Sequence record: KT454805
Length of the DNA stretch: 64,000 bases
Origin: Escherichia phage phiSUSP1
Strand: one strand, 5' to 3'
The position numbers were made by a program, and so were the translations under genes. Numbering within the stretch: the stretch's first letter is position 1; each line of letters begins with the position of its first letter. Below are positions 22,942-63,318 of the stretch, in pieces. Under the pieces are notes generated by a model. It ran no database searches. It was not told the DNA's origin and worked only from the letters and a program-made list of their open reading frames with translations.

Positions 22942-23139
22942 ATGCCGACTATCCTAGCAATCCTCTTAAAAAACTTGGGTAGCTTCTTCTGGAAACTTCT
23001 ACTTTCCCTTCTGAGTGAATACATGATTGAGAAAGCCTTCTTCAGACTTGCAAGATACCTTGCGAGTAAGACAGATACGCCTATTGATGATGAATTTGTT
23101 AACAACTTGGAAAAAGCCTTTAAAGGGGAGAAAGAATGA
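22942..23139 (+). CDS. small hydrophobic protein (65 aa)
   Basis: ORF track; hydrophobic N-terminus ILAILLKNLGSFFWKLLLSLL. Confidence 0.35.
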   Translation: MPTILAILLKNLGSFFWKLLLSLLSEYMIEKAFFRLARYLASKTDTPIDDEFVNNLEKAFKGEKE

Positions 23140-23510
23140 AGTGGTTAGAGGATGCTTTCAAAAATAACATTGGTGCAATTGTTGTGGGTATCTTCAGTGT
23201 AATTGGTATGTACACTACAATGCAGGTGTCTAGTGGGAAGCAGGAAGTTTCCGTCTCAACAAAGTTACAACAGCTAGATAGTTACAACAAAAGCAACTAT
23301 TCAGCTATTCGTGATTTACAGTCTGACATGAAACTCCTGCAATTAGGCATGGAGAACCAGAAGGTTCAGCTAGAGAACGTAAAGGGTGAAAACGCCAAGT
23401 TGACAAAAACCCTTGATAAATTCTCTGACAGTGTTAATAACCTAGCACAGTCTGTATCAGCTTTGCAAGCAATCACTGAACAGAACACACAAAATGCTAA
23501 GAAGAAATAA
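23136..23510 (+). CDS. membrane-anchored coiled-coil protein (124 aa)
   Basis: N-terminal TM segment IGAIVVGIFSVIGMY then Q/L/K-rich helical region. Confidence 0.4.
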   Translation: MKWLEDAFKNNIGAIVVGIFSVIGMYTTMQVSSGKQEVSVSTKLQQLDSYNKSNYSAIRDLQSDMKLLQLGMENQKVQLENVKGENAKLTKTLDKFSDSVNNLAQSVSALQAITEQNTQNAKKK

Positions 23511-24447: not shown

Positions 24448-24993
24448 TCAGAAACGTCCTCTTACTTGTGGAACATAGAAATTGACCACCCCAGATTTAT
24501 CATCCAGAGGTTTAGCCTGTATTCTAGCAAATAGTTCAGGTTCGTGTAAATACTCAAAGAATCCCTCTTCAGGAAGATACACAGTTGGCTCTTTAGTAAT
24601 TTCATAGATAACTGTGTGGTAAACCTCATCAGCAAACGGTAAAGCGGATTTTAAGATGTTTGCACCACCAATCACACAGACATTTTCATCAATCTGGCTG
24701 TCAATCTTCTTCAAGAATGCACCGAAAGAGTCTGGGTCAACCTTCGCAATAACAAAACCATCATTGTCAAAGTCTATCCCATAATATGGAAGGTTGTTTG
24801 ACAGAATCATGTTCTCACGATTTGGTAAAGGTTTACGTCCAAGAGTCTTGAAAGTCTCGTTACCCATGATTACAAGCTGGTTTTGAGTCAGCTTTTTAAA
24901 CTCTTTCATGTCTTCACGGTTACGCTCCCAAGGCATCCCATCAGGAGTACCAAACTCACCTTTACGACCACTTGCAAATACTAAACGAATCAT
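24448..24993 (-). CDS. folA: dihydrofolate reductase
   Basis: 181 aa; N-terminal MPWE motif and LVIMG..TF..LGRKPLP..N.ILS pattern typical of DHFR. Confidence 0.8.
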   Translation of the reverse strand: MIRLVFASGRKGEFGTPDGMPWERNREDMKEFKKLTQNQLVIMGNETFKTLGRKPLPNRENMILSNNLPYYGIDFDNDGFVIAKVDPDSFGAFLKKIDSQIDENVCVIGGANILKSALPFADEVYHTVIYEITKEPTVYLPEEGFFEYLHEPELFARIQAKPLDDKSGVVNFYVPQVRGRF

Positions 24994-25259
24994 TTGAAAA
25001 ACCCCTTAATGATAAACCAGTTGATGACGTTCTTAATAACTTTAACTGGATGGTAAATAATATGTGGATGTGGCTCATAACTTCCATAAGCCCAAAAAGA
25101 AACAACCTTCATACAACCACGGCAACGAGTGTACTCTGCTGCTACATGACCAGATACAATATCACTTACCTCACCTTGGAAGTCTGTACCACCACAATGA
25201 GGACAACGTATTGGTTCGCCACTCTGCATGTAACAGTGTTCAACTTTAAAGATTTTCAT
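24990..25259 (-). CDS. small zinc-ribbon protein (89 aa)
   Basis: CPHCGG ... CRGC cysteine pairs. Confidence 0.4.
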   Translation of the reverse strand: MKIFKVEHCYMQSGEPIRCPHCGGTDFQGEVSDIVSGHVAAEYTRCRGCMKVVSFWAYGSYEPHPHIIYHPVKVIKNVINWFIIKGFFK

Positions 25260-25774
25260 TTCTTATTCACCTTATATTCTTGTTCCAGTTTTACAATGAA
25301 ATCAAGGTCATCACCACACGATGAAAGGAAGTCTTCAAAGTGTTTTGGGATGAAATCTAAGAAGTTCATCGTTGCAAGATTGCCAGCAAGAGTTATGTAG
25401 CTGTTATTCTGACATTCAGCAGTGATTACATACTCACCAGCTTCTGGCCTTACCAAATCCACAATATCATCTAAAAAGATGTTAAGTAAAGCTTTGAAGC
25501 TACGTGGATACTGCATACCTTCATACAACTCAATGCTTGGAACCAGCTTCACAGAGATTGATTTAGAATCTCGAAACTCAGTAGTGAAGAGGTGAGTTGG
25601 TAAAAGGCAAAGTGCATCACCAGTATCTTCATCAAGAAACTCAATCGTTCCAGCTTCGTAGTTTGTCTCAATCAGGATTGTGCCCTCTTGGAGCCTACGA
25701 TTTTTCAGGTGTTCTTTGATAACACCCTTAAGCAGAATTGCTTCTGGTTCTGTTAAGCTGTTTCCAATCTTCAT
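25256..25774 (-). CDS. hypothetical protein (172 aa)
   Basis: ORF track; overlapping start/stop with neighbours. Confidence 0.4.
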   Translation of the reverse strand: MKIGNSLTEPEAILLKGVIKEHLKNRRLQEGTILIETNYEAGTIEFLDEDTGDALCLLPTHLFTTEFRDSKSISVKLVPSIELYEGMQYPRSFKALLNIFLDDIVDLVRPEAGEYVITAECQNNSYITLAGNLATMNFLDFIPKHFEDFLSSCGDDLDFIVKLEQEYKVNKK

Positions 25775-25775
25775 A

Positions 25776-26276
25776 TTAAACCTCTACAAAAGTTTGTTTG
25801 TCATTATCGTATGCGAAGAATTGTATAACCTTTTGAGTGTTCCAGTCAATCTTTTCATCATAAGAAAGACCTTTATCAACACGCTTTGCAACAGTCTGAT
25901 AGATTATCTCACGTAACTTCTCAAACTCTGTTCCACTACTGAACGGTTGCATAGTGACTTTCTTGTAACCCTCAACAGCTTTCTTGTTCCACTCTTGAGC
26001 AGTTGGAGAGGTTACTTTGTACAGCCGTGGGAACAGTTCATAACCCATCTTATTTTCTTCGTTAGCCATACGAAGTTGATGGAAGTACTCATTTACTCGA
26101 CCATCTTCTTCAAGCCATTTGTAAATCGTCTGCAAACGACCTAAATCGTTATTGTAATGTGCAGCACGTTTCACAGCACCTTTCTCAGTACGATACGGAG
26201 ACTTAGGAAGACTTAGCATACGTCCTGTCATCAGGTTGTATCCGAAGAACAAATCAATTTTTACGGGAAGAGACAT
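25776..26276 (-). CDS. hypothetical protein (166 aa)
   Basis: ORF track. Confidence 0.4.
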   Translation of the reverse strand: MSLPVKIDLFFGYNLMTGRMLSLPKSPYRTEKGAVKRAAHYNNDLGRLQTIYKWLEEDGRVNEYFHQLRMANEENKMGYELFPRLYKVTSPTAQEWNKKAVEGYKKVTMQPFSSGTEFEKLREIIYQTVAKRVDKGLSYDEKIDWNTQKVIQFFAYDNDKQTFVEV

Positions 26277-26620
26277 TTGATATCCTCATTTTTGAATACG
26301 AAAGTGGTATACTTAGTACCATCAACATCAAGCCAAGCACACATTACATCGACACCTTCAAGGTTGCTGTGAAGGTCACGAATAAAATGGTCTCGTACTT
26401 CTTTTGCACAGGTTGTCTCCAGTTTAATATTGGAGATTGCTGAACCAACAGCCATATAACCTTTTACACGATTCTTCTCAGAATGCTTAATCATTCCTTC
26501 CTGAACATAATCAGTTAGGTCATCAAGAATGTATTTCCCATACTGCTTCTCAGTTTCAGTAGGTTTCCCGTAGAAGCCAATTGCAAAGTTACCTTTGAAG
26601 ATTGCATTTTCACGTTTCAT
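26261..26620 (-). CDS. hypothetical protein (119 aa)
   Basis: ORF track. Confidence 0.4.
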   Translation of the reverse strand: MKRENAIFKGNFAIGFYGKPTETEKQYGKYILDDLTDYVQEGMIKHSEKNRVKGYMAVGSAISNIKLETTCAKEVRDHFIRDLHSNLEGVDVMCAWLDVDGTKYTTFVFKNEDIKCLFP

Positions 26621-26621
26621 A

Positions 26622-26951
26622 TTAATCTGACAGCCTTAAGTTAAAGTTAACACCAAGTTTTTCACAAGCTTTCAACATGTATTCAAGGGTAATCTTTCCA
26701 GTACCGTTGACAATGTTGGAAACACGACTTTGAGAGATATCACAAATCTTTGCGACTTGTGCCTGAGAAAGTTTTCTTTTCTCAATTTCTTTTTCAAAAC
26801 GGAATGCAACGAACTCTCTCATTTCGTCTACATCCATTGGACAGATATAACTTGCCATCTCATACTCTCTATCAGCTTCCCACTTATCTTGTGGAGCATA
26901 AGGGTCAAAGACTTCATTCATCTTTCTTCCTCCGTTTTCTGGAAGTGTCAA
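26622..26951 (-). CDS. HTH (XRE-like) DNA-binding protein
   Basis: helix-turn-helix-like segment LSQAQVAKICDISQSRVSNIVNG. Confidence 0.5.
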   Translation of the reverse strand: MTLPENGGRKMNEVFDPYAPQDKWEADREYEMASYICPMDVDEMREFVAFRFEKEIEKRKLSQAQVAKICDISQSRVSNIVNGTGKITLEYMLKACEKLGVNFNLRLSD

Positions 26952-27117
26952 TCAATGAATCTATGTTTGTTGCTCTGACGTTTTCACGAGTACCATTGAT
27001 ATGGTCATCCAGTGCTTTATCTACCTCAGAGTCATCTGCACAGTAAACTCGGAAGATAGCATAACCTTCATCGTCAAGCACTTCTCCATAGTTCTTCCTG
27101 CAATGATTCTTCTTCAT
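26914..27117 (-). CDS. small hypothetical protein (67 aa)
   Basis: ORF track; overlaps neighbour by about 38 nt, so the start is uncertain. Confidence 0.3.
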   Translation of the reverse strand: MKKNHCRKNYGEVLDDEGYAIFRVYCADDSEVDKALDDHINGTRENVRATNIDSLIDTSRKRRKKDE

Positions 27118-27118
27118 A

Positions 27119-27499
27119 TCATAGACCTACGCAGGTACGCTTTTCAACAAAATAGTGAACACCTTTGAAAGTTTCATCCATCATTTCACTTTCAGTATCA
27201 CTGACCTTCTCAATGCTCTTGGAATCAAGCAAGTCAACATCCTGAGTGACCATAGCATCAGAAACAGCTTCGTAGTAGTCTGCCATCACACGATATTTGT
27301 AATCAGTAATACGGTCAGACATTTCTATGACAGTTGGAGAAGATAACGGCTTAGTTAACTCCCCAGCATCTGTTACGACTTTACGAACAATCTGACAAGC
27401 CTCCATAGAGACCTTGCTAAAGTCTGCTTCAGGCATCTTCATAGCTGATGCACCAAAACTCAGAGTTGCCAGAATGACACCTACCATAAGCTTTTTCAT
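27119..27499 (-). CDS. secreted/periplasmic protein with cleavable signal peptide (126 aa)
   Basis: N-terminus MKKLMVGVILATLSFGASA with AxA cleavage site; two Cys; GAGGTGA RBS; first gene after the repeat-rich promoter region. Confidence 0.5.
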   Translation of the reverse strand: MKKLMVGVILATLSFGASAMKMPEADFSKVSMEACQIVRKVVTDAGELTKPLSSPTVIEMSDRITDYKYRVMADYYEAVSDAMVTQDVDLLDSKSIEKVSDTESEMMDETFKGVHYFVEKRTCVGL

Positions 27500-27543
27500 A
27501 ACTCACCTCATATAAAATTTTGTATACATTCAAGTATAAAAAT

Positions 27544-27582
27544 AAGCTATAACACCTGACTTGTCAACAGATTTTATAGCTT
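27544..27582 (-). promoter_or_regulatory. minus-strand promoter region with -35 TTGACA flanked by a 9-bp inverted repeat
   Basis: TTGACA on minus strand at 27563..27568; AAGCTATAA (27544..27552) and TTATAGCTT (27574..27582) are perfect reverse complements; -10 is not clean. Confidence 0.35.
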
Positions 27583-27602
27583 ATTTGGCAGATTTTTTAT
27601 AA

Positions 27603-27753
27603 GGCTACTGCCATCCTTCCATACCTCACCACACAAGACCAGACCATGCCGTACTCCACTTCACAGGACCAAGCATCACTTAAAAACCCTCTTAGAAGAC
27701 TCTTAAGTGGTGTAAGTCTCATTTTAATGTAGCTGAGACTAACTACCCATACC
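27603..27753. repeat. regulatory repeat module copy 1: CA-rich tract + 36-bp element A + 42-bp hairpin element B
   Basis: element A 27674..27709 is identical to 29230..29265; element B 27712..27753 repeats at 27855..27896 with 1 mismatch; plus strand almost lacks G across the CA-rich tract. Confidence 0.75.
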
Positions 27754-27816
27754 GAACCTTACTAAACCACACTTTACCTGACTGAACCCTACCAAACATC
27801 ACCATGCCAGACCAAA

Positions 27817-28003
27817 CCTTATTAAAAGACCCTCTTCAAAGACCTTTTAAAAAGGTGAGTCTCATTTTAATGTAGCTGAGACTAACTACCCATACCAAAC
27901 CAGACCGCACCAGACAAAACCACGCCAAACCGCACCTTACCCAACCTTAACACACCAGACCCAACCTTATTAAAAGACCCTGTTTAAAGACCTTTTAAAA
28001 AGG
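27817..28003. repeat. tandem duplication of about 148 bp (element C, CA-rich tract, element B)
   Basis: 39-bp element C at 27817..27855 and 27965..28003 (2 mismatches); B copy 2 at 27855..27896. Confidence 0.7.
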
Positions 28004-28022
28004 AGCCTCCGAAGAGGCTACC
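27993..28022 (-). terminator. intrinsic terminator for minus-strand gene 28031..28471
   Basis: on minus strand, hairpin AGCCTC-ttcg-GAGGCT followed by TTTTT. Confidence 0.6.
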
Positions 28023-28030
28023 TAGTCAAC

Positions 28031-28471
28031 TTAGAAAGGCTTTCTACGTTGCTTGTTAATGTTAGCTTTCATAGCAGCTAAATGGTTTTGCTGTTCAATC
28101 AGTCGTGAACGTTCTTGATGACTAAGTGCCATAGTGTTCACATTCTCAATTGCTTGGGTGGCTTGCTTTAAAGCTCGACCAATCTTACCAGACATTTTAC
28201 GTTTTGCAATAGTTGCTTGATGTTTTGGTTCAACTACACGATAACCCACACCCATTGAAGCAACCAGATAAATCTTTTCTTCTTTAAGAAGCTTTTCGAT
28301 AAACTTCTCAAGTCGGTTTAATCGTGTCAGAGAATAAGCCTTCATCTCATCTTCGTACTTAACAATATCACCCTGATAAGTTGGCTTCACAATACCTAAG
28401 AAGGTATCCATTTCAGAGTGTGATACAGTATCACCGTAACTAAACTTTGCTGCTAATGCTTTTGTATTCAT
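28031..28471 (-). CDS. hypothetical protein (146 aa), cassette gene 2
   Basis: ORF track; basic C-terminus; no recognisable motif. Confidence 0.45.
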   Translation of the reverse strand: MNTKALAAKFSYGDTVSHSEMDTFLGIVKPTYQGDIVKYEDEMKAYSLTRLNRLEKFIEKLLKEEKIYLVASMGVGYRVVEPKHQATIAKRKMSGKIGRALKQATQAIENVNTMALSHQERSRLIEQQNHLAAMKANINKQRRKPF

Positions 28472-28473
28472 AA

Positions 28474-29079
<606 letters not shown>

Positions 29080-29149: not shown

Positions 29150-29310
29150 ACGTGGCTACTACCATCCACCCACACCAGACCAAACCTAGCCTTACCCCAC
29201 CGCACCTTACCGAACCACACCTTACCATACATCACTTAAAAACCCTCTTAGAAGACTCTTAAGTGATGCTGGTGAGTACCCGTTGGTTTATGCTGCTCAG
29301 TATACTCACC
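29150..29310. repeat. regulatory repeat module copy 2: CA-rich tract + element A + B-like hairpin
   Basis: element A 29230..29265 is a perfect 36-bp copy; 8-bp stem hairpin GGTGAGTA...TACTCACC at 29271..29310; CA-rich tract 29150..29229 shares blocks with 27603..27673. Confidence 0.7.
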
Positions 29311-61026: not shown

Positions 61027-61057
61027 TGTCTGCATGTTTAACAAAATAGGAGTGCAA

Positions 61058-61606
61058 ATGAAGAAATTTGTTTTAGGTTTGTGCTTATTCTTTACAGCAC
61101 ATTTAGCTACAGCATCTGACTGTCCAGAACTTACAATCAGCCAGAAAGTAAATATGTTAAAAGCATATAACTATGGCGAAGGACAGATGGGAAAAGGTTG
61201 GGGAATCCCTTTAGCAGCTATAGCCTTACAAGAGTCACAATTAGGTGTCATGTTAGAAAATAAAAGGACTCATGATTATGGTGTTTTCCAGAATCACTTG
61301 AAGACTGTTGTAAAGCGTAACAAAGTATCTCCAAAGGTTGCTAAGAAGAAGTTGGTAAGTGACTTCCATTACTCAGCAAAAGAGGCTCATAAAGAGTTGC
61401 TATTCTGGACAAAGGTTCACGGTAACCCAGATGGAAAGTACTCTATGAAGCGTGTCCTAGCTTCTTATAATGCTGGTTACAAATATAAGATTCCAAAGGC
61501 TAGACAATACTCTCAAGATGTGTACAATAACATGAAACTGCTTGCTCAATGTGAGTTTGCAACAAACATTAAAAAGGTAAAATATGAGCGAATCAAAACA
61601 ATTTGA
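61058..61606 (+). CDS. secreted lytic transglycosylase (SLT-domain, signal peptide)
   Basis: signal peptide MKKFVLGLCLFFTAHLATA; SLT-like motifs AIALQESQLG, GVFQ, ASYNAG; AGGAG RBS. Confidence 0.55.
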   Translation: MKKFVLGLCLFFTAHLATASDCPELTISQKVNMLKAYNYGEGQMGKGWGIPLAAIALQESQLGVMLENKRTHDYGVFQNHLKTVVKRNKVSPKVAKKKLVSDFHYSAKEAHKELLFWTKVHGNPDGKYSMKRVLASYNAGYKYKIPKARQYSQDVYNNMKLLAQCEFATNIKKVKYERIKTI

Positions 61607-62807: not shown

Positions 62808-63155
62808 ATGACATTTAAAGAATTTTGTCAAGCAGCTTTTGTAATCATTTTCTTAATAGGTGTTGGTGCTTGGGGAGGTTACACTTACAAGACCAGCCAA
62901 GTTAATGAAAAGGAGTTAACTAACCAGAGACTTGTAAGTGTTGCTAAAGATGCTTATCAAGAAGGTTTATCAAATCTTAGCTCCAATTACAAAAATGATT
63001 TGAAAGATGTGCTTGCTAAAAACAAACACACAAAAGAGGTATTGAATTATGAAAAAACTAAGACAGTCTTTATTAATGATTGTGCTACTGAGCCTTATGT
63101 CAGGGTGTTCAACGAACAAAGTGAACAGTACCTTCAAAAACTCCCAAGTAAGTGA
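62808..63155 (+). CDS. i-spanin (Rz-like)
   Basis: N-terminal TM segment FVIIFLIGVGAWGGY then charged helical periplasmic region; o-spanin gene embedded at its 3' end. Confidence 0.5.
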   Translation: MTFKEFCQAAFVIIFLIGVGAWGGYTYKTSQVNEKELTNQRLVSVAKDAYQEGLSNLSSNYKNDLKDVLAKNKHTKEVLNYEKTKTVFINDCATEPYVRVFNEQSEQYLQKLPSK

Positions 63156-63318
63156 GAGTGACAAGTATACTCAAGAGGAAGCACGATATGAAGTCAAAAG
63201 CACTAAAGGTAAAGATATTGCAAGTGCTCTTGAGTTTTATCGTGACGGCTACTATGAGTGTACTATCAAGGCAAACAACTTGATTGATATGATTTTGTTA
63301 GGGAATAAGCAGCAATGA
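63049..63318 (+). CDS. o-spanin (Rz1-like outer-membrane lipoprotein)
   Basis: lipoprotein signal MKKLRQSLLMIVLLSLMSGC (lipobox LMSGC); starts inside the i-spanin gene in another frame and extends past its stop. Confidence 0.55.
   Translation: MKKLRQSLLMIVLLSLMSGCSTNKVNSTFKNSQVSESDKYTQEEARYEVKSTKGKDIASALEFYRDGYYECTIKANNLIDMILLGNKQQ

What the first reader, a model, noticed from the sequence alone, without database searches (positions are those of the whole stretch)
27119..27499. Early secreted periplasmic protein directly behind the repeat-rich promoter region
The product has a classic Sec signal peptide (MKKLMVGVILATLSFGASA, AxA site) and two cysteines placed for one disulfide. A periplasmic protein made from the first gene of an early transcription unit suggests superinfection exclusion, receptor masking, or inhibition of a periplasmic host enzyme.
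Basis: partly seen in the sequence, partly recalled or inferred. Interest (0 to 1): 0.5.

Follow-up and report, generated by a model that had tools for sequence, protein, structure and literature searches.

The report
Secreted small phage protein, function unknown
This is a real gene found only in Felix O1-like phages; it makes a small, acidic, helical protein that is almost certainly exported to the bacterial periplasm from a strong promoter, but its role (perhaps blocking a cell-wall enzyme or a second infecting phage) is not known.

Summary
Window 27119..27499 (minus strand) encodes a 126-aa protein, 100% identical to Escherichia phage SUSP2 gp038 and 32% identical to Felix O1 gp87. It has a textbook Sec signal peptide: MKK, a 12-residue hydrophobic core, then ASA|M. 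It also has two cysteines. Both features are kept in all 24 aligned homologues, down to 31% identity.

dN/dS of 0.07-0.33 shows a coding gene under purifying selection. AlphaFold (pLDDT 91) predicts a three-helix bundle. It has a conserved "head" carrying the cysteines and a variable helical hairpin.

The family occurs only in enterobacterial Ounavirinae. No sequence or fold relative was found in Pfam, NCBIfam, PADLOC, PDB or BFVD, and T4 Spackle and RI did not match.

In every lineage examined the gene sits directly behind a near-consensus sigma-70 promoter. One promoter version is identical over about 85 nt across three genera. "Early" is only partly supported: Felix O1 RT-PCR puts ORF87 maximal at 25 min. 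The homologue is not among the Felix O1 virion proteins.

It is the most diverged conserved gene of 66 compared with Felix O1. Function is inferred only. I favour a periplasmic binding or inhibitor protein analogous to Spackle, not homologous to it. A candidate partner is the phage's own exported, very basic transglycosylase-like protein. Interest is moderate to low.

The parts
27119..27499 (-). CDS of the 126-aa precursor (stop codon included). It equals SUSP2 gp038, Felix O1 gp87 (Felix01p159) and phrog_4332.
   Evidence: dN/dS 0.07-0.33
27443..27499 (-). Codons 1-19: predicted Sec signal peptide MKKLMVGVILATLSFGASA, with signal peptidase I cleavage predicted after Ala19.
   Evidence: features conserved in 24 homologues
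27122..27442 (-). Mature domain: 107 aa, 12.1 kDa, pI 4.6. Predicted three-helix bundle (precursor residues 30-44, 54-86, 93-120). Cys35 is encoded at 27395-27397 and Cys123 at 27131-27133. The invariant GELxKP loop spans residues 46-51. Residues 76-112 form the variable hairpin.
   Evidence: AF2 pLDDT 90.8, pTM 0.81; invariant columns; pI; segment dN/dS
27504..27509 (-). Shine-Dalgarno sequence GAGGTG, 4 nt upstream of the ATG.
   Evidence: sequence; GGAGGT or GAGGT at the same place in homologues
27539..27567 (-). Promoter A: TTGACA-17 nt-TATTTT (10 of 12 matches). It lies within a stretch of about 85 nt that is identical in the window, Felix O1, AYO145A, nataliec, Moogle, Sf18 and vB_SflM_004 (one mismatch in BPS17L1).
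   Evidence: a promoter is annotated independently at the equivalent site in AYO145A
27540..27586 (.). 19-nt inverted repeat (27540-27558 / 27568-27586, 89% complementary) bracketing the -35 hexamer. Candidate operator. Unique in the window.
27600..28003 (-). Repeat-rich spacer: three units, each a box of about 30 nt (TTAAGAGTCTTCTAAGAGGGTTTTTAAG type) followed by a GGT-rich tract. Two units also carry a hairpin. A related unit lies at 29160-29265.
   Evidence: no Rfam match
28004..28019 (-). Intrinsic terminator hairpin (AGCCTCTTCGGAGGCT followed by a T-run) that ends the upstream unit (gene 28031..28471).
26914..27117 (-). Next gene (67 aa, phrog_4473, unknown function). Its start lies 1 nt after the stop of the target, so it is probably co-transcribed.
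26622..26921 (-). Cro/CI-type HTH regulator, third gene of the unit. Candidate binder of the inverted repeat at promoter A.
   Evidence: Pfam HTH_3 E=7.6e-12; phrog_1373

Best explanation
Shown by sequence and comparison: the gene is real, is under purifying selection and is restricted to Ounavirinae. It is the first cistron behind a strong host-type (sigma-70) promoter, in an operon that continues with a 67-aa protein, an HTH regulator and, further on, DHFR and thymidylate synthase.

Strongly inferred: the precursor is exported by Sec and cut by signal peptidase I after Ala19. This releases a 12-kDa acidic protein into the periplasm, where DsbA would join Cys35 and Cys123. The predicted fold is a three-helix bundle. 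It has a conserved, disulfide-stapled head (GELxKP loop, top of helix 2, end of helix 3 and the C-terminal tail) and a fast-evolving helical hairpin.

Inferred, not shown: it has no catalytic motif, so it probably acts as a stoichiometric binding or inhibitor protein in the envelope of the infected cell. My preferred reading is a protective or exclusion role analogous to T4 Spackle. In that reading it would neutralise a basic, periplasm-acting protein, such as a muralytic or penetration component of a superinfecting phage, so that the infected cell is not breached again.

The confidence given is for the whole statement including this function. Export itself I put at about 0.85.
For: - Signal peptide and two Cys are conserved in 24 homologues while the rest of the sequence diverges.
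- Signal-peptide-like N-termini are rare in the window.
- dN/dS is below 1.
- The AF2 model is confident and all-helical. The same fold is predicted for the Sf13 homologue in BFVD (TM 0.96).
- The mature domain is acidic in every allele class (pI 4.4-5.0).
- The promoter is conserved at 100% over about 85 nt across genera, or replaced by another TTGACA-N16/17-TATACT promoter in ESh21 and PC79-13.
- A terminator lies upstream.
- Felix O1 ORF87 is transcribed during infection and gp87 is absent from virions (PMC3185647).
- It is the most diverged conserved orthologue of 66 proteins compared with Felix O1 (32% against a backbone of 80-99%), as is typical of genes involved in conflict or interaction.
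- Spackle has the same gross anatomy: early gene, cleaved signal, small helical bundle, one disulfide, binds a basic patch (PMC7677548).
Against: - There is no experimental export data and no SignalP run.
- There is no sequence or fold similarity to Spackle, RI or any known exclusion protein.
- Pfam finds no lysozyme or peptidoglycan-hydrolase domain in the tape measure, Dit-like protein, plug, hub or spike of this phage.
- The injection machinery is 81-94% conserved where this protein is 32-59%, and its alleles do not track tail-fibre or minor-tail alleles.
- Expression in Felix O1 peaks at 25 min rather than 5 min.
- Three-helix bundles are generic, so the fold says little about function.
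Confidence: 0.35

Rival explanations
1. It is a periplasmic inhibitor or regulator of the phage's OWN exported muralytic enzyme. The window encodes a second Sec-type exported protein (61058..61606, phrog_600, Felix O1 ORF3). That protein carries lytic-transglycosylase-like motifs and a strong positive charge. The acidic target protein would hold it in check until lysis, like an immunity protein.
For: - The second exported protein has the signal peptide MKKFVLGLCLFFTAHLATA|SD and two conserved Cys.
- It gives a weak Pfam SLT hit (E=2e-3), PF01464 is recorded on distant homologues, and ES / GxFQ / SYNxG columns are invariant.
- Mature pI is 9.8 (net +16), against pI 4.6 (net -8) for the target.
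- Both genes are present in Felix O1, and both ORF3 and ORF87 peak at 25 min.
- The Spackle-lysozyme pair is likewise acid-base complementary.
Against:
- The SLT assignment is below Pfam's gathering score, and a profile search of PDB sequences found no transglycosylase.
- The SLT-like protein is 75% identical between this phage and Felix O1, while the target is 32%.
- phrog_600-type proteins occur in phages that lack the target family (own knowledge: T4 vs.1 region).
Confidence: 0.2
2. It is a host-takeover factor that binds a host periplasmic or inner-membrane protein. Possible targets include a lytic transglycosylase, a division or envelope-stress component, or a Tol/Ton component. It would stabilise the envelope or shut off a host function during infection.
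For: Periplasmic location and non-enzymatic fold. Position in a host-RNAP-driven operon among replication and nucleotide-metabolism genes. The conserved head suggests one conserved partner.
Against: No similarity to any known inhibitor. Felixounavirus alleles are almost identical in Salmonella and E. coli phages, while phages sharing E. coli or Shigella hosts carry very different alleles. Divergence therefore follows phage lineage, not host.
Confidence: 0.2
3. It is a lysis-timing regulator (an antiholin in the manner of T4 RI). A periplasmic protein would bind the periplasmic part of the holin and delay lysis.
For: The "putative holin" (23136..23510) has one N-terminal hydrophobic segment and a C-terminal coiled-coil region of about 90 residues that could face the periplasm. 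These phages carry rIIA and rIIB.
Against: No match to RI structures. The signal is cleavable, not a SAR domain. The holin candidate is 93% conserved where the target is 32%. The gene is not near the lysis genes.
Confidence: 0.08
4. It is not a soluble periplasmic protein. The N-terminus would be an uncleaved membrane anchor (for example an i-spanin-like or other bitopic protein), or the protein would stay in the cytoplasm.
For: No experimental data exist, and rule-based signal-peptide calls can be wrong.
Against: - The h-region is only 12 residues, with Gly/Pro/Asn breakers and a small residue at -3/-1 in all classes.
- The true spanin pair lies elsewhere: 62808..63155 (phrog_1152, Rz-like) with the overlapping lipoprotein gene 63049..63318.
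- No lipoprotein ORF lies in or beside the target gene.
- The model is a compact bundle, not an extended coiled coil.
Confidence: 0.07

Closest known systems
T4 Spackle (gp61.3), periplasmic superinfection-exclusion protein that inhibits the gp5 tail lysozyme (PMC7677548)
   Same: Product of a lytic myovirus gene driven by host RNA polymerase. Cleavable Sec signal. Small, all-helical mature protein (75 aa against 107 aa). One Cys pair joining the N-terminal helix to the C-terminal part. Acidic binder of a basic surface. Not a virion protein.
T4 RI antiholin
   Same: A small helical periplasmic phage protein that acts by binding another phage protein.
   Different: RI uses a SAR signal-anchor-release domain, whereas this protein has a classical cleavable signal. 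No structural match was found. The gene is unlinked to lysis genes.
Lipoprotein exclusion proteins Llp (T5) and Cor (phi80/N15)
   Same: Phage-encoded envelope proteins made early to block reinfection.
   Different: Those are outer-membrane lipoproteins with a lipobox Cys at +1. This protein has no lipobox and is predicted to be soluble.
Periplasmic immunity proteins of type VI amidase effectors (Tai4/Rap family; own knowledge, not tested specifically)
   Same: Small, helical, disulfide-containing periplasmic proteins that neutralise cell-wall hydrolases stoichiometrically.

Membership tests
Sec signal peptide / signal peptidase I substrate | Positively charged n-region, a 7-15 residue hydrophobic h-region, small neutral residues at -3 and -1, no Pro at +1 | tested here: met
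   MKK / LMVGVILATLSF / G-A-S-A|M. The same pattern is seen in 24 homologues, with Ala -1 invariant. This is a rule-based test only; SignalP and experiment are not available.
Bacterial lipoprotein (Llp/Cor-type exclusion proteins, o-spanins) | Lipobox L-[AS]-[GA]-C with Cys at +1 | tested here: not met
   No Cys lies near the cleavage site; the first mature Cys is residue 35. The Cys7 in some alleles lies inside the h-region, has no lipobox context and is replaced by Tyr in P0035.
T4 Spackle family | Sequence or fold homology to Spackle | tested here: not met
T4 Spackle family | Small periplasmic helical bundle with one intramolecular disulfide | tested here: inconclusive
   The helical bundle is predicted with pLDDT 90.8, and exactly two invariant Cys are present.
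T4 Spackle family | Cognate target: a lysozyme domain in the phage's own tail spike or hub | tested here: not met
   Pfam finds TMP_3, Dit_like, Pam3_gp18 plug and a spike N-terminal domain, but no lysozyme, SLT or peptidase domain in the tail proteins between 11301 and 16279. This is negative by Pfam only.
T4 Spackle family | Confers exclusion of superinfecting phage | not testable with these tools
   Needs plating and DNA-entry assays.
i-spanin (Rz-like) | N-terminal transmembrane anchor, an extended periplasmic coiled coil, and a partner o-spanin lipoprotein gene embedded or adjacent | tested here: not met
   The h-region is 12 aa with an AxA site. The model is a compact bundle. There is no lipoprotein ORF nearby. 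The real pair is at 62808..63155 (phrog_1152) and 63049..63318.
T4 RI antiholin | SAR N-terminal domain and a periplasmic domain homologous to RI | tested here: not met
phrog_4332 / Felix O1 gp87 family (uncharacterised) | Full-length sequence match | tested here: met
   phrog_4332 E=1.2e-58 over 1-126. tblastn finds 257 phage records, all Ounavirinae-like. There are only 3 clusters among 1.84 billion representative proteins.

The most novel reading that the evidence does not exclude
The protein founds a new, structurally distinct class of phage periplasmic "immunity/exclusion" proteins. A disulfide-stapled three-helix head would clamp a basic muralytic or penetration protein. That partner would be either the phage's own Sec-exported transglycosylase-like enzyme or the equivalent part of a superinfecting phage. 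The fast-evolving helical hairpin would set allele-specific recognition, giving Felix O1-like phages a Spackle-like system by convergence.
Probability: 0.25. Interest if true: 0.55.

Novelty: new variant of a known kind. Interest (0 to 1): 0.35.

Why it matters
Felix O1-like phages are widely used for Salmonella and E. coli typing, biocontrol and therapy, yet their non-structural genes are almost all uncharacterised. A secreted protein made from a strong promoter is one of the few handles on how these phages remodel or guard the cell envelope.

If it is an exclusion or immunity factor, it would affect how related phages can be combined in cocktails. It would also be a second, independent structural solution to the job done by T4 Spackle. 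If it regulates the exported transglycosylase-like enzyme, it would reveal an unrecognised layer of lysis control.

As it stands, this is a well-supported localisation prediction for an orphan family, not a demonstrated mechanism.

Tried and rejected
1. Homology. Pfam, NCBIfam and PADLOC gave nothing, and PHROGs gave only an unknown-function family. An exhaustive phmmer search of 1.84 billion representatives found only 3 clusters of the same family. A profile search with 12 diverse members found 32 proteins, all full-length family members. A PDB sequence profile search gave nothing.

3. i-spanin idea. Rejected because the true spanin pair was found at 62808-63318.

4. Lipoprotein or Tat export. 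Rejected from the sequence.

5. Co-variation with tail genes. There is no parallel between the target's identities (32/59/41% against Felix O1, Moogle and ESh21) and those of the tail fibre (60/39/54%) or minor tail protein (43/45/84%). The injection proteins are uniformly conserved. With only three comparisons this is weak.

6. Positive selection. Not seen. dN/dS is below 1 everywhere; the hairpin is only relaxed (0.37).

7. AF2 co-folding.

8. Rfam on the repeat-rich spacers. No credible family.

9. Literature. No paper mentions the protein beyond a genome table. The BSPM4 ORF52 lysis-timing paper concerns an unrelated Chi-like phage.

Full report
**What the window is**

The region is 96% identical at the nucleotide level to Escherichia phage SUSP2 (Ounavirinae, Suspvirus). 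It is about 82-87% identical to many Felix O1-like phages. The finding's coordinates correspond exactly to a minus-strand ORF, 27119..27499, of 126 aa. Its product is 100% identical to SUSP2 gp038. The gene is annotated "hypothetical protein" in all 257 phage records that carry it. It falls in PHROG 4332, a family of unknown function.

**The observation**

The N-terminus is MKKLMVGVILATLSFGASA|MKMPEAD.
- It has two lysines and a 12-residue uncharged hydrophobic core, too short for a membrane span.
- Gly is at -4 and Ala at -3 and -1. There is no lipobox and no twin-arginine motif.
- A GAGGTG ribosome-binding site lies 4 nt before the ATG.
- The cysteines are at residues 35 and 123.

A crude signal-peptide rule was run on every ATG ORF of at least 50 aa on both strands. 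It picked only this gene, the o-spanin-like lipoprotein at 63049 and one out-of-frame short ORF.

In alignments of 12 and then 24 homologues, down to 31% identity, the signal region changes sequence freely (…ASA|M, …AVA|M, …VNA|T, …AYA|D). It keeps MKK, a hydrophobic core and a small residue at -3/-1. Ala -1 is invariant and both cysteines are invariant. Every mature domain has exactly two Cys.

Signal peptides and mature domains are even shuffled between alleles. vB_SflM_004 combines a Felix-type signal with a Moogle-type mature domain. P0006 and P0007 combine a Moogle-type signal with a SUSP2-type mature domain.

Nei-Gojobori dN/dS is 0.07-0.26 within allele classes and 0.33 between SUSP2-type and Moogle-type. 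The ORF is therefore a protein-coding gene under purifying selection. Export itself and the disulfide geometry remain predictions.

**Structure**

AlphaFold2 on the mature 107 residues with nine family sequences gives mean pLDDT 90.8 and pTM 0.81. It predicts three helices: mature residues 11-25, 35-67 and 74-101.

Mapping the invariant columns puts them at one end of the bundle:
- Cys35 in helix 1;
- the G46-E-L-x-K-P51 loop;
- D62, D66 and Y69 at the top of helix 2;
- G113, F117, R121, C123 and G125 at the end of helix 3 and in the tail.

Residues 76-112, the far ends of helices 2 and 3, form a hairpin that differs almost completely between allele classes. This hairpin has lower pLDDT. Its dN/dS is 0.37, against 0.11 and 0 for the head segments. 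The mature protein is acidic in every class (pI 4.4-5.0, net charge -6 to -10).

**Relatives**

There are none outside the family.
- Pfam, NCBIfam and PADLOC give nothing.
- An exhaustive phmmer scan of 1.84 billion representative proteins finds three clusters, all of this family.
- A profile search returns 32 proteins, all full-length members with E of 1e-42 or better.
- tblastn finds the gene only in Escherichia, Salmonella, Shigella and Citrobacter Felix O1-like phages.
- No T4 Spackle or RI chain appears among the hits shown.

**Context**

The gene lies in the minus-strand replication and nucleotide-metabolism block that runs from DNA polymerase to thymidylate synthase.

Upstream, gene 28031..28471 ends in an intrinsic terminator (28004-28019). 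A 400-nt repeat-rich spacer follows. Then comes a TTGACA-17-TATTTT promoter at 27539-27567, whose -35 hexamer sits between the arms of a 19-nt inverted repeat. That repeat is unique in the window.

The roughly 85 nt around this promoter are identical in the window, Felix O1, AYO145A, nataliec, Moogle, Sf18 and vB_SflM_004, and differ at one base in BPS17L1. The coding sequence just downstream is only 32-60% identical at the protein level. ESh21 and PC79-13 instead carry another near-consensus promoter (GTTGTTGACA-N16/17-TATACT) directly before the gene. Felix O1 has both promoters in tandem.

Downstream, a 67-aa gene starts 1 nt after the stop. An HTH regulator overlaps that gene. The arrangement indicates an operon in which the exported protein is the first cistron.

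**Timing and virion association**

In Felix O1, gene numbering is confirmed by gp88 being the ligase. RT-PCR lists ORF87 as maximally expressed at 25 min ("middle"), together with ligase and polymerase. Whole-phage shotgun proteomics did not detect gp87 (PMC3185647). "Early" is therefore plausible from the promoter but not demonstrated.

**Evolutionary behaviour**

Of 66 SUSP2 proteins compared with Felix O1, most are 80-99% identical. The target, at 32%, is the most diverged orthologue retained at full length. It is more diverged than the tail fibre at 60%.

The whole unit from the promoter to DHFR is a variable block. The ligase just upstream is 93-95% identical.

The target's identities to Felix O1, Moogle and ESh21 are 32, 59 and 41%. 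They do not parallel those of the tail fibre (60, 39, 54%) or the "minor tail protein" (43, 45, 84%). The tape measure, plug, hub and spike stay at 81-94%.

Alleles follow phage lineage rather than host. Felix-type alleles are nearly identical in Salmonella and E. coli phages.

**Mechanism**

Nothing catalytic is recognisable. The anatomy is a small, acidic, disulfide-stapled helical protein in the periplasm. That is the anatomy of a stoichiometric binder.

The closest known analogue is T4 Spackle. It is an early gene product with a cleaved signal. Its mature form is a 75-residue helical bundle with one disulfide (Cys29-Cys81), and it binds a basic patch of the gp5 tail lysozyme (PMC7677548). 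I therefore favour a protective or exclusion role (confidence 0.35). Membership of the Spackle family, however, fails on homology. It also fails on the cognate target: Pfam finds no muralytic domain in this phage's tail proteins.

A concrete alternative emerged from the window itself. A second Sec-type exported protein (61058..61606, Felix O1 ORF3, phrog_600) has these properties:
- a weak Pfam SLT hit;
- invariant ES / GxFQ / SYNxG columns;
- two conserved cysteines;
- pI 9.8.

The acidic target could be its inhibitor (confidence 0.2). A PDB profile search also did not confirm the SLT assignment.

The remaining rivals are:
- a host-directed envelope factor (0.2);
- an RI-like antiholin (0.08);
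- non-export (0.07).

The i-spanin idea is rejected because the real spanin pair lies at 62808-63318.

**Verdict**

The finding is a correct and well-supported localisation prediction for an orphan, lineage-restricted phage gene. The functional suggestions are reasonable but untested. The gene is already annotated everywhere as hypothetical. What is added here is:
- the conserved export and disulfide signature;
- the head-plus-variable-hairpin architecture;
- the extreme divergence next to an ultra-conserved promoter;
- a candidate partner.

Novelty: a new variant of a known kind, namely phage-encoded periplasmic effector proteins. Interest: 0.35.

Noticed in passing
window 61034..61606 (+), probable start at 61058: A second Sec-type exported protein (MKKFVLGLCLFFTAHLATA|SDCPEL...). 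It belongs to phrog_600 (unknown function), gives a weak Pfam SLT hit (E=2e-3, below the gathering score) and has invariant ES / GxFQ / SYNxG columns. It has two conserved Cys and a mature pI of 9.8. It is 75% identical to Felix O1 ORF3. It may be an exported lytic transglycosylase and a candidate partner of the target protein.
   Followed up: partly
window 27539..27586 (-): The -35 hexamer of the promoter lies in the 9-nt gap between the arms of a 19-nt inverted repeat. About 85 nt here are identical across Suspvirus, Mooglevirus and Felixounavirus, although the downstream CDS is only 32-60% identical. This is a likely operator, perhaps for the HTH regulator encoded two genes downstream (26622..26921). 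The site is unique in the window.
   Followed up: partly
window 27600..28003 and 29160..29265 (-): A repeated unit: a box of about 30 nt (TTAAGAGTCTTCTAAGAGGGTTTTTAAG, identical at 27677-27705 and 29233-29261) followed by a GGT-rich tract with a period of roughly 8 nt. Two copies add a hairpin (TTAGTCTCAGCTACATTAAAATGAGACT). There is no Rfam match and the function is unknown. At 29160-29265 the unit lies downstream of a promoter-like site, so it would be part of a 5' leader.
   Followed up: partly
window 28031..29076 (-), with flanks to 29345: A two-gene cassette (146 aa, phrog_5926; and 195-200 aa, phrog_4652; both unknown). It is 98-99% identical to the cassette in Moogle and Sf18 but absent from Felix O1, ESh21 and PC79-13. 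It sits between duplicated box+GGT units, which looks like an indel bounded by direct repeats. In Felix O1 the same spacer simply carries promoters B and A in tandem before gp87.
   Followed up: partly
window 62808..63155 (+) and 63049..63318 (+): An overlapping spanin pair: an Rz-like i-spanin (phrog_1152, N-terminal transmembrane segment) and an 89-aa lipoprotein (LLSLMS|GC lipobox-like), probably the o-spanin.
   Followed up: partly
window 23136..23510 (+) and 22942..23139 (+): The gene annotated "putative holin" in SUSP2 and Moogle encodes a protein with one N-terminal hydrophobic segment and a C-terminal coiled coil of about 90 residues (weak DivIC or filament-like hits). This is an unusual shape for a holin. 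The preceding 65-aa ORF is hydrophobic at its N-terminus.
   Followed up: no
window 24448..27499 (-): The whole transcription unit from the promoter to DHFR is a variable block (32-76% aa identity to Felix O1, Moogle and ESh21). It is embedded in a backbone that is 80-99% identical, and the boundary falls exactly at the conserved promoter. gp034 (166 aa) is replaced by an unrelated gene in Felix O1.
   Followed up: partly
homologues: L006 (vB_SflM_004), P0006/P0007: Signal peptide and mature domain of the family recombine independently. One combination is a Felix-type signal with a Moogle-type mature domain. Another is a Moogle-type signal with a SUSP2-type mature domain. The breakpoint lies at or near the cleavage site.
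   Followed up: no
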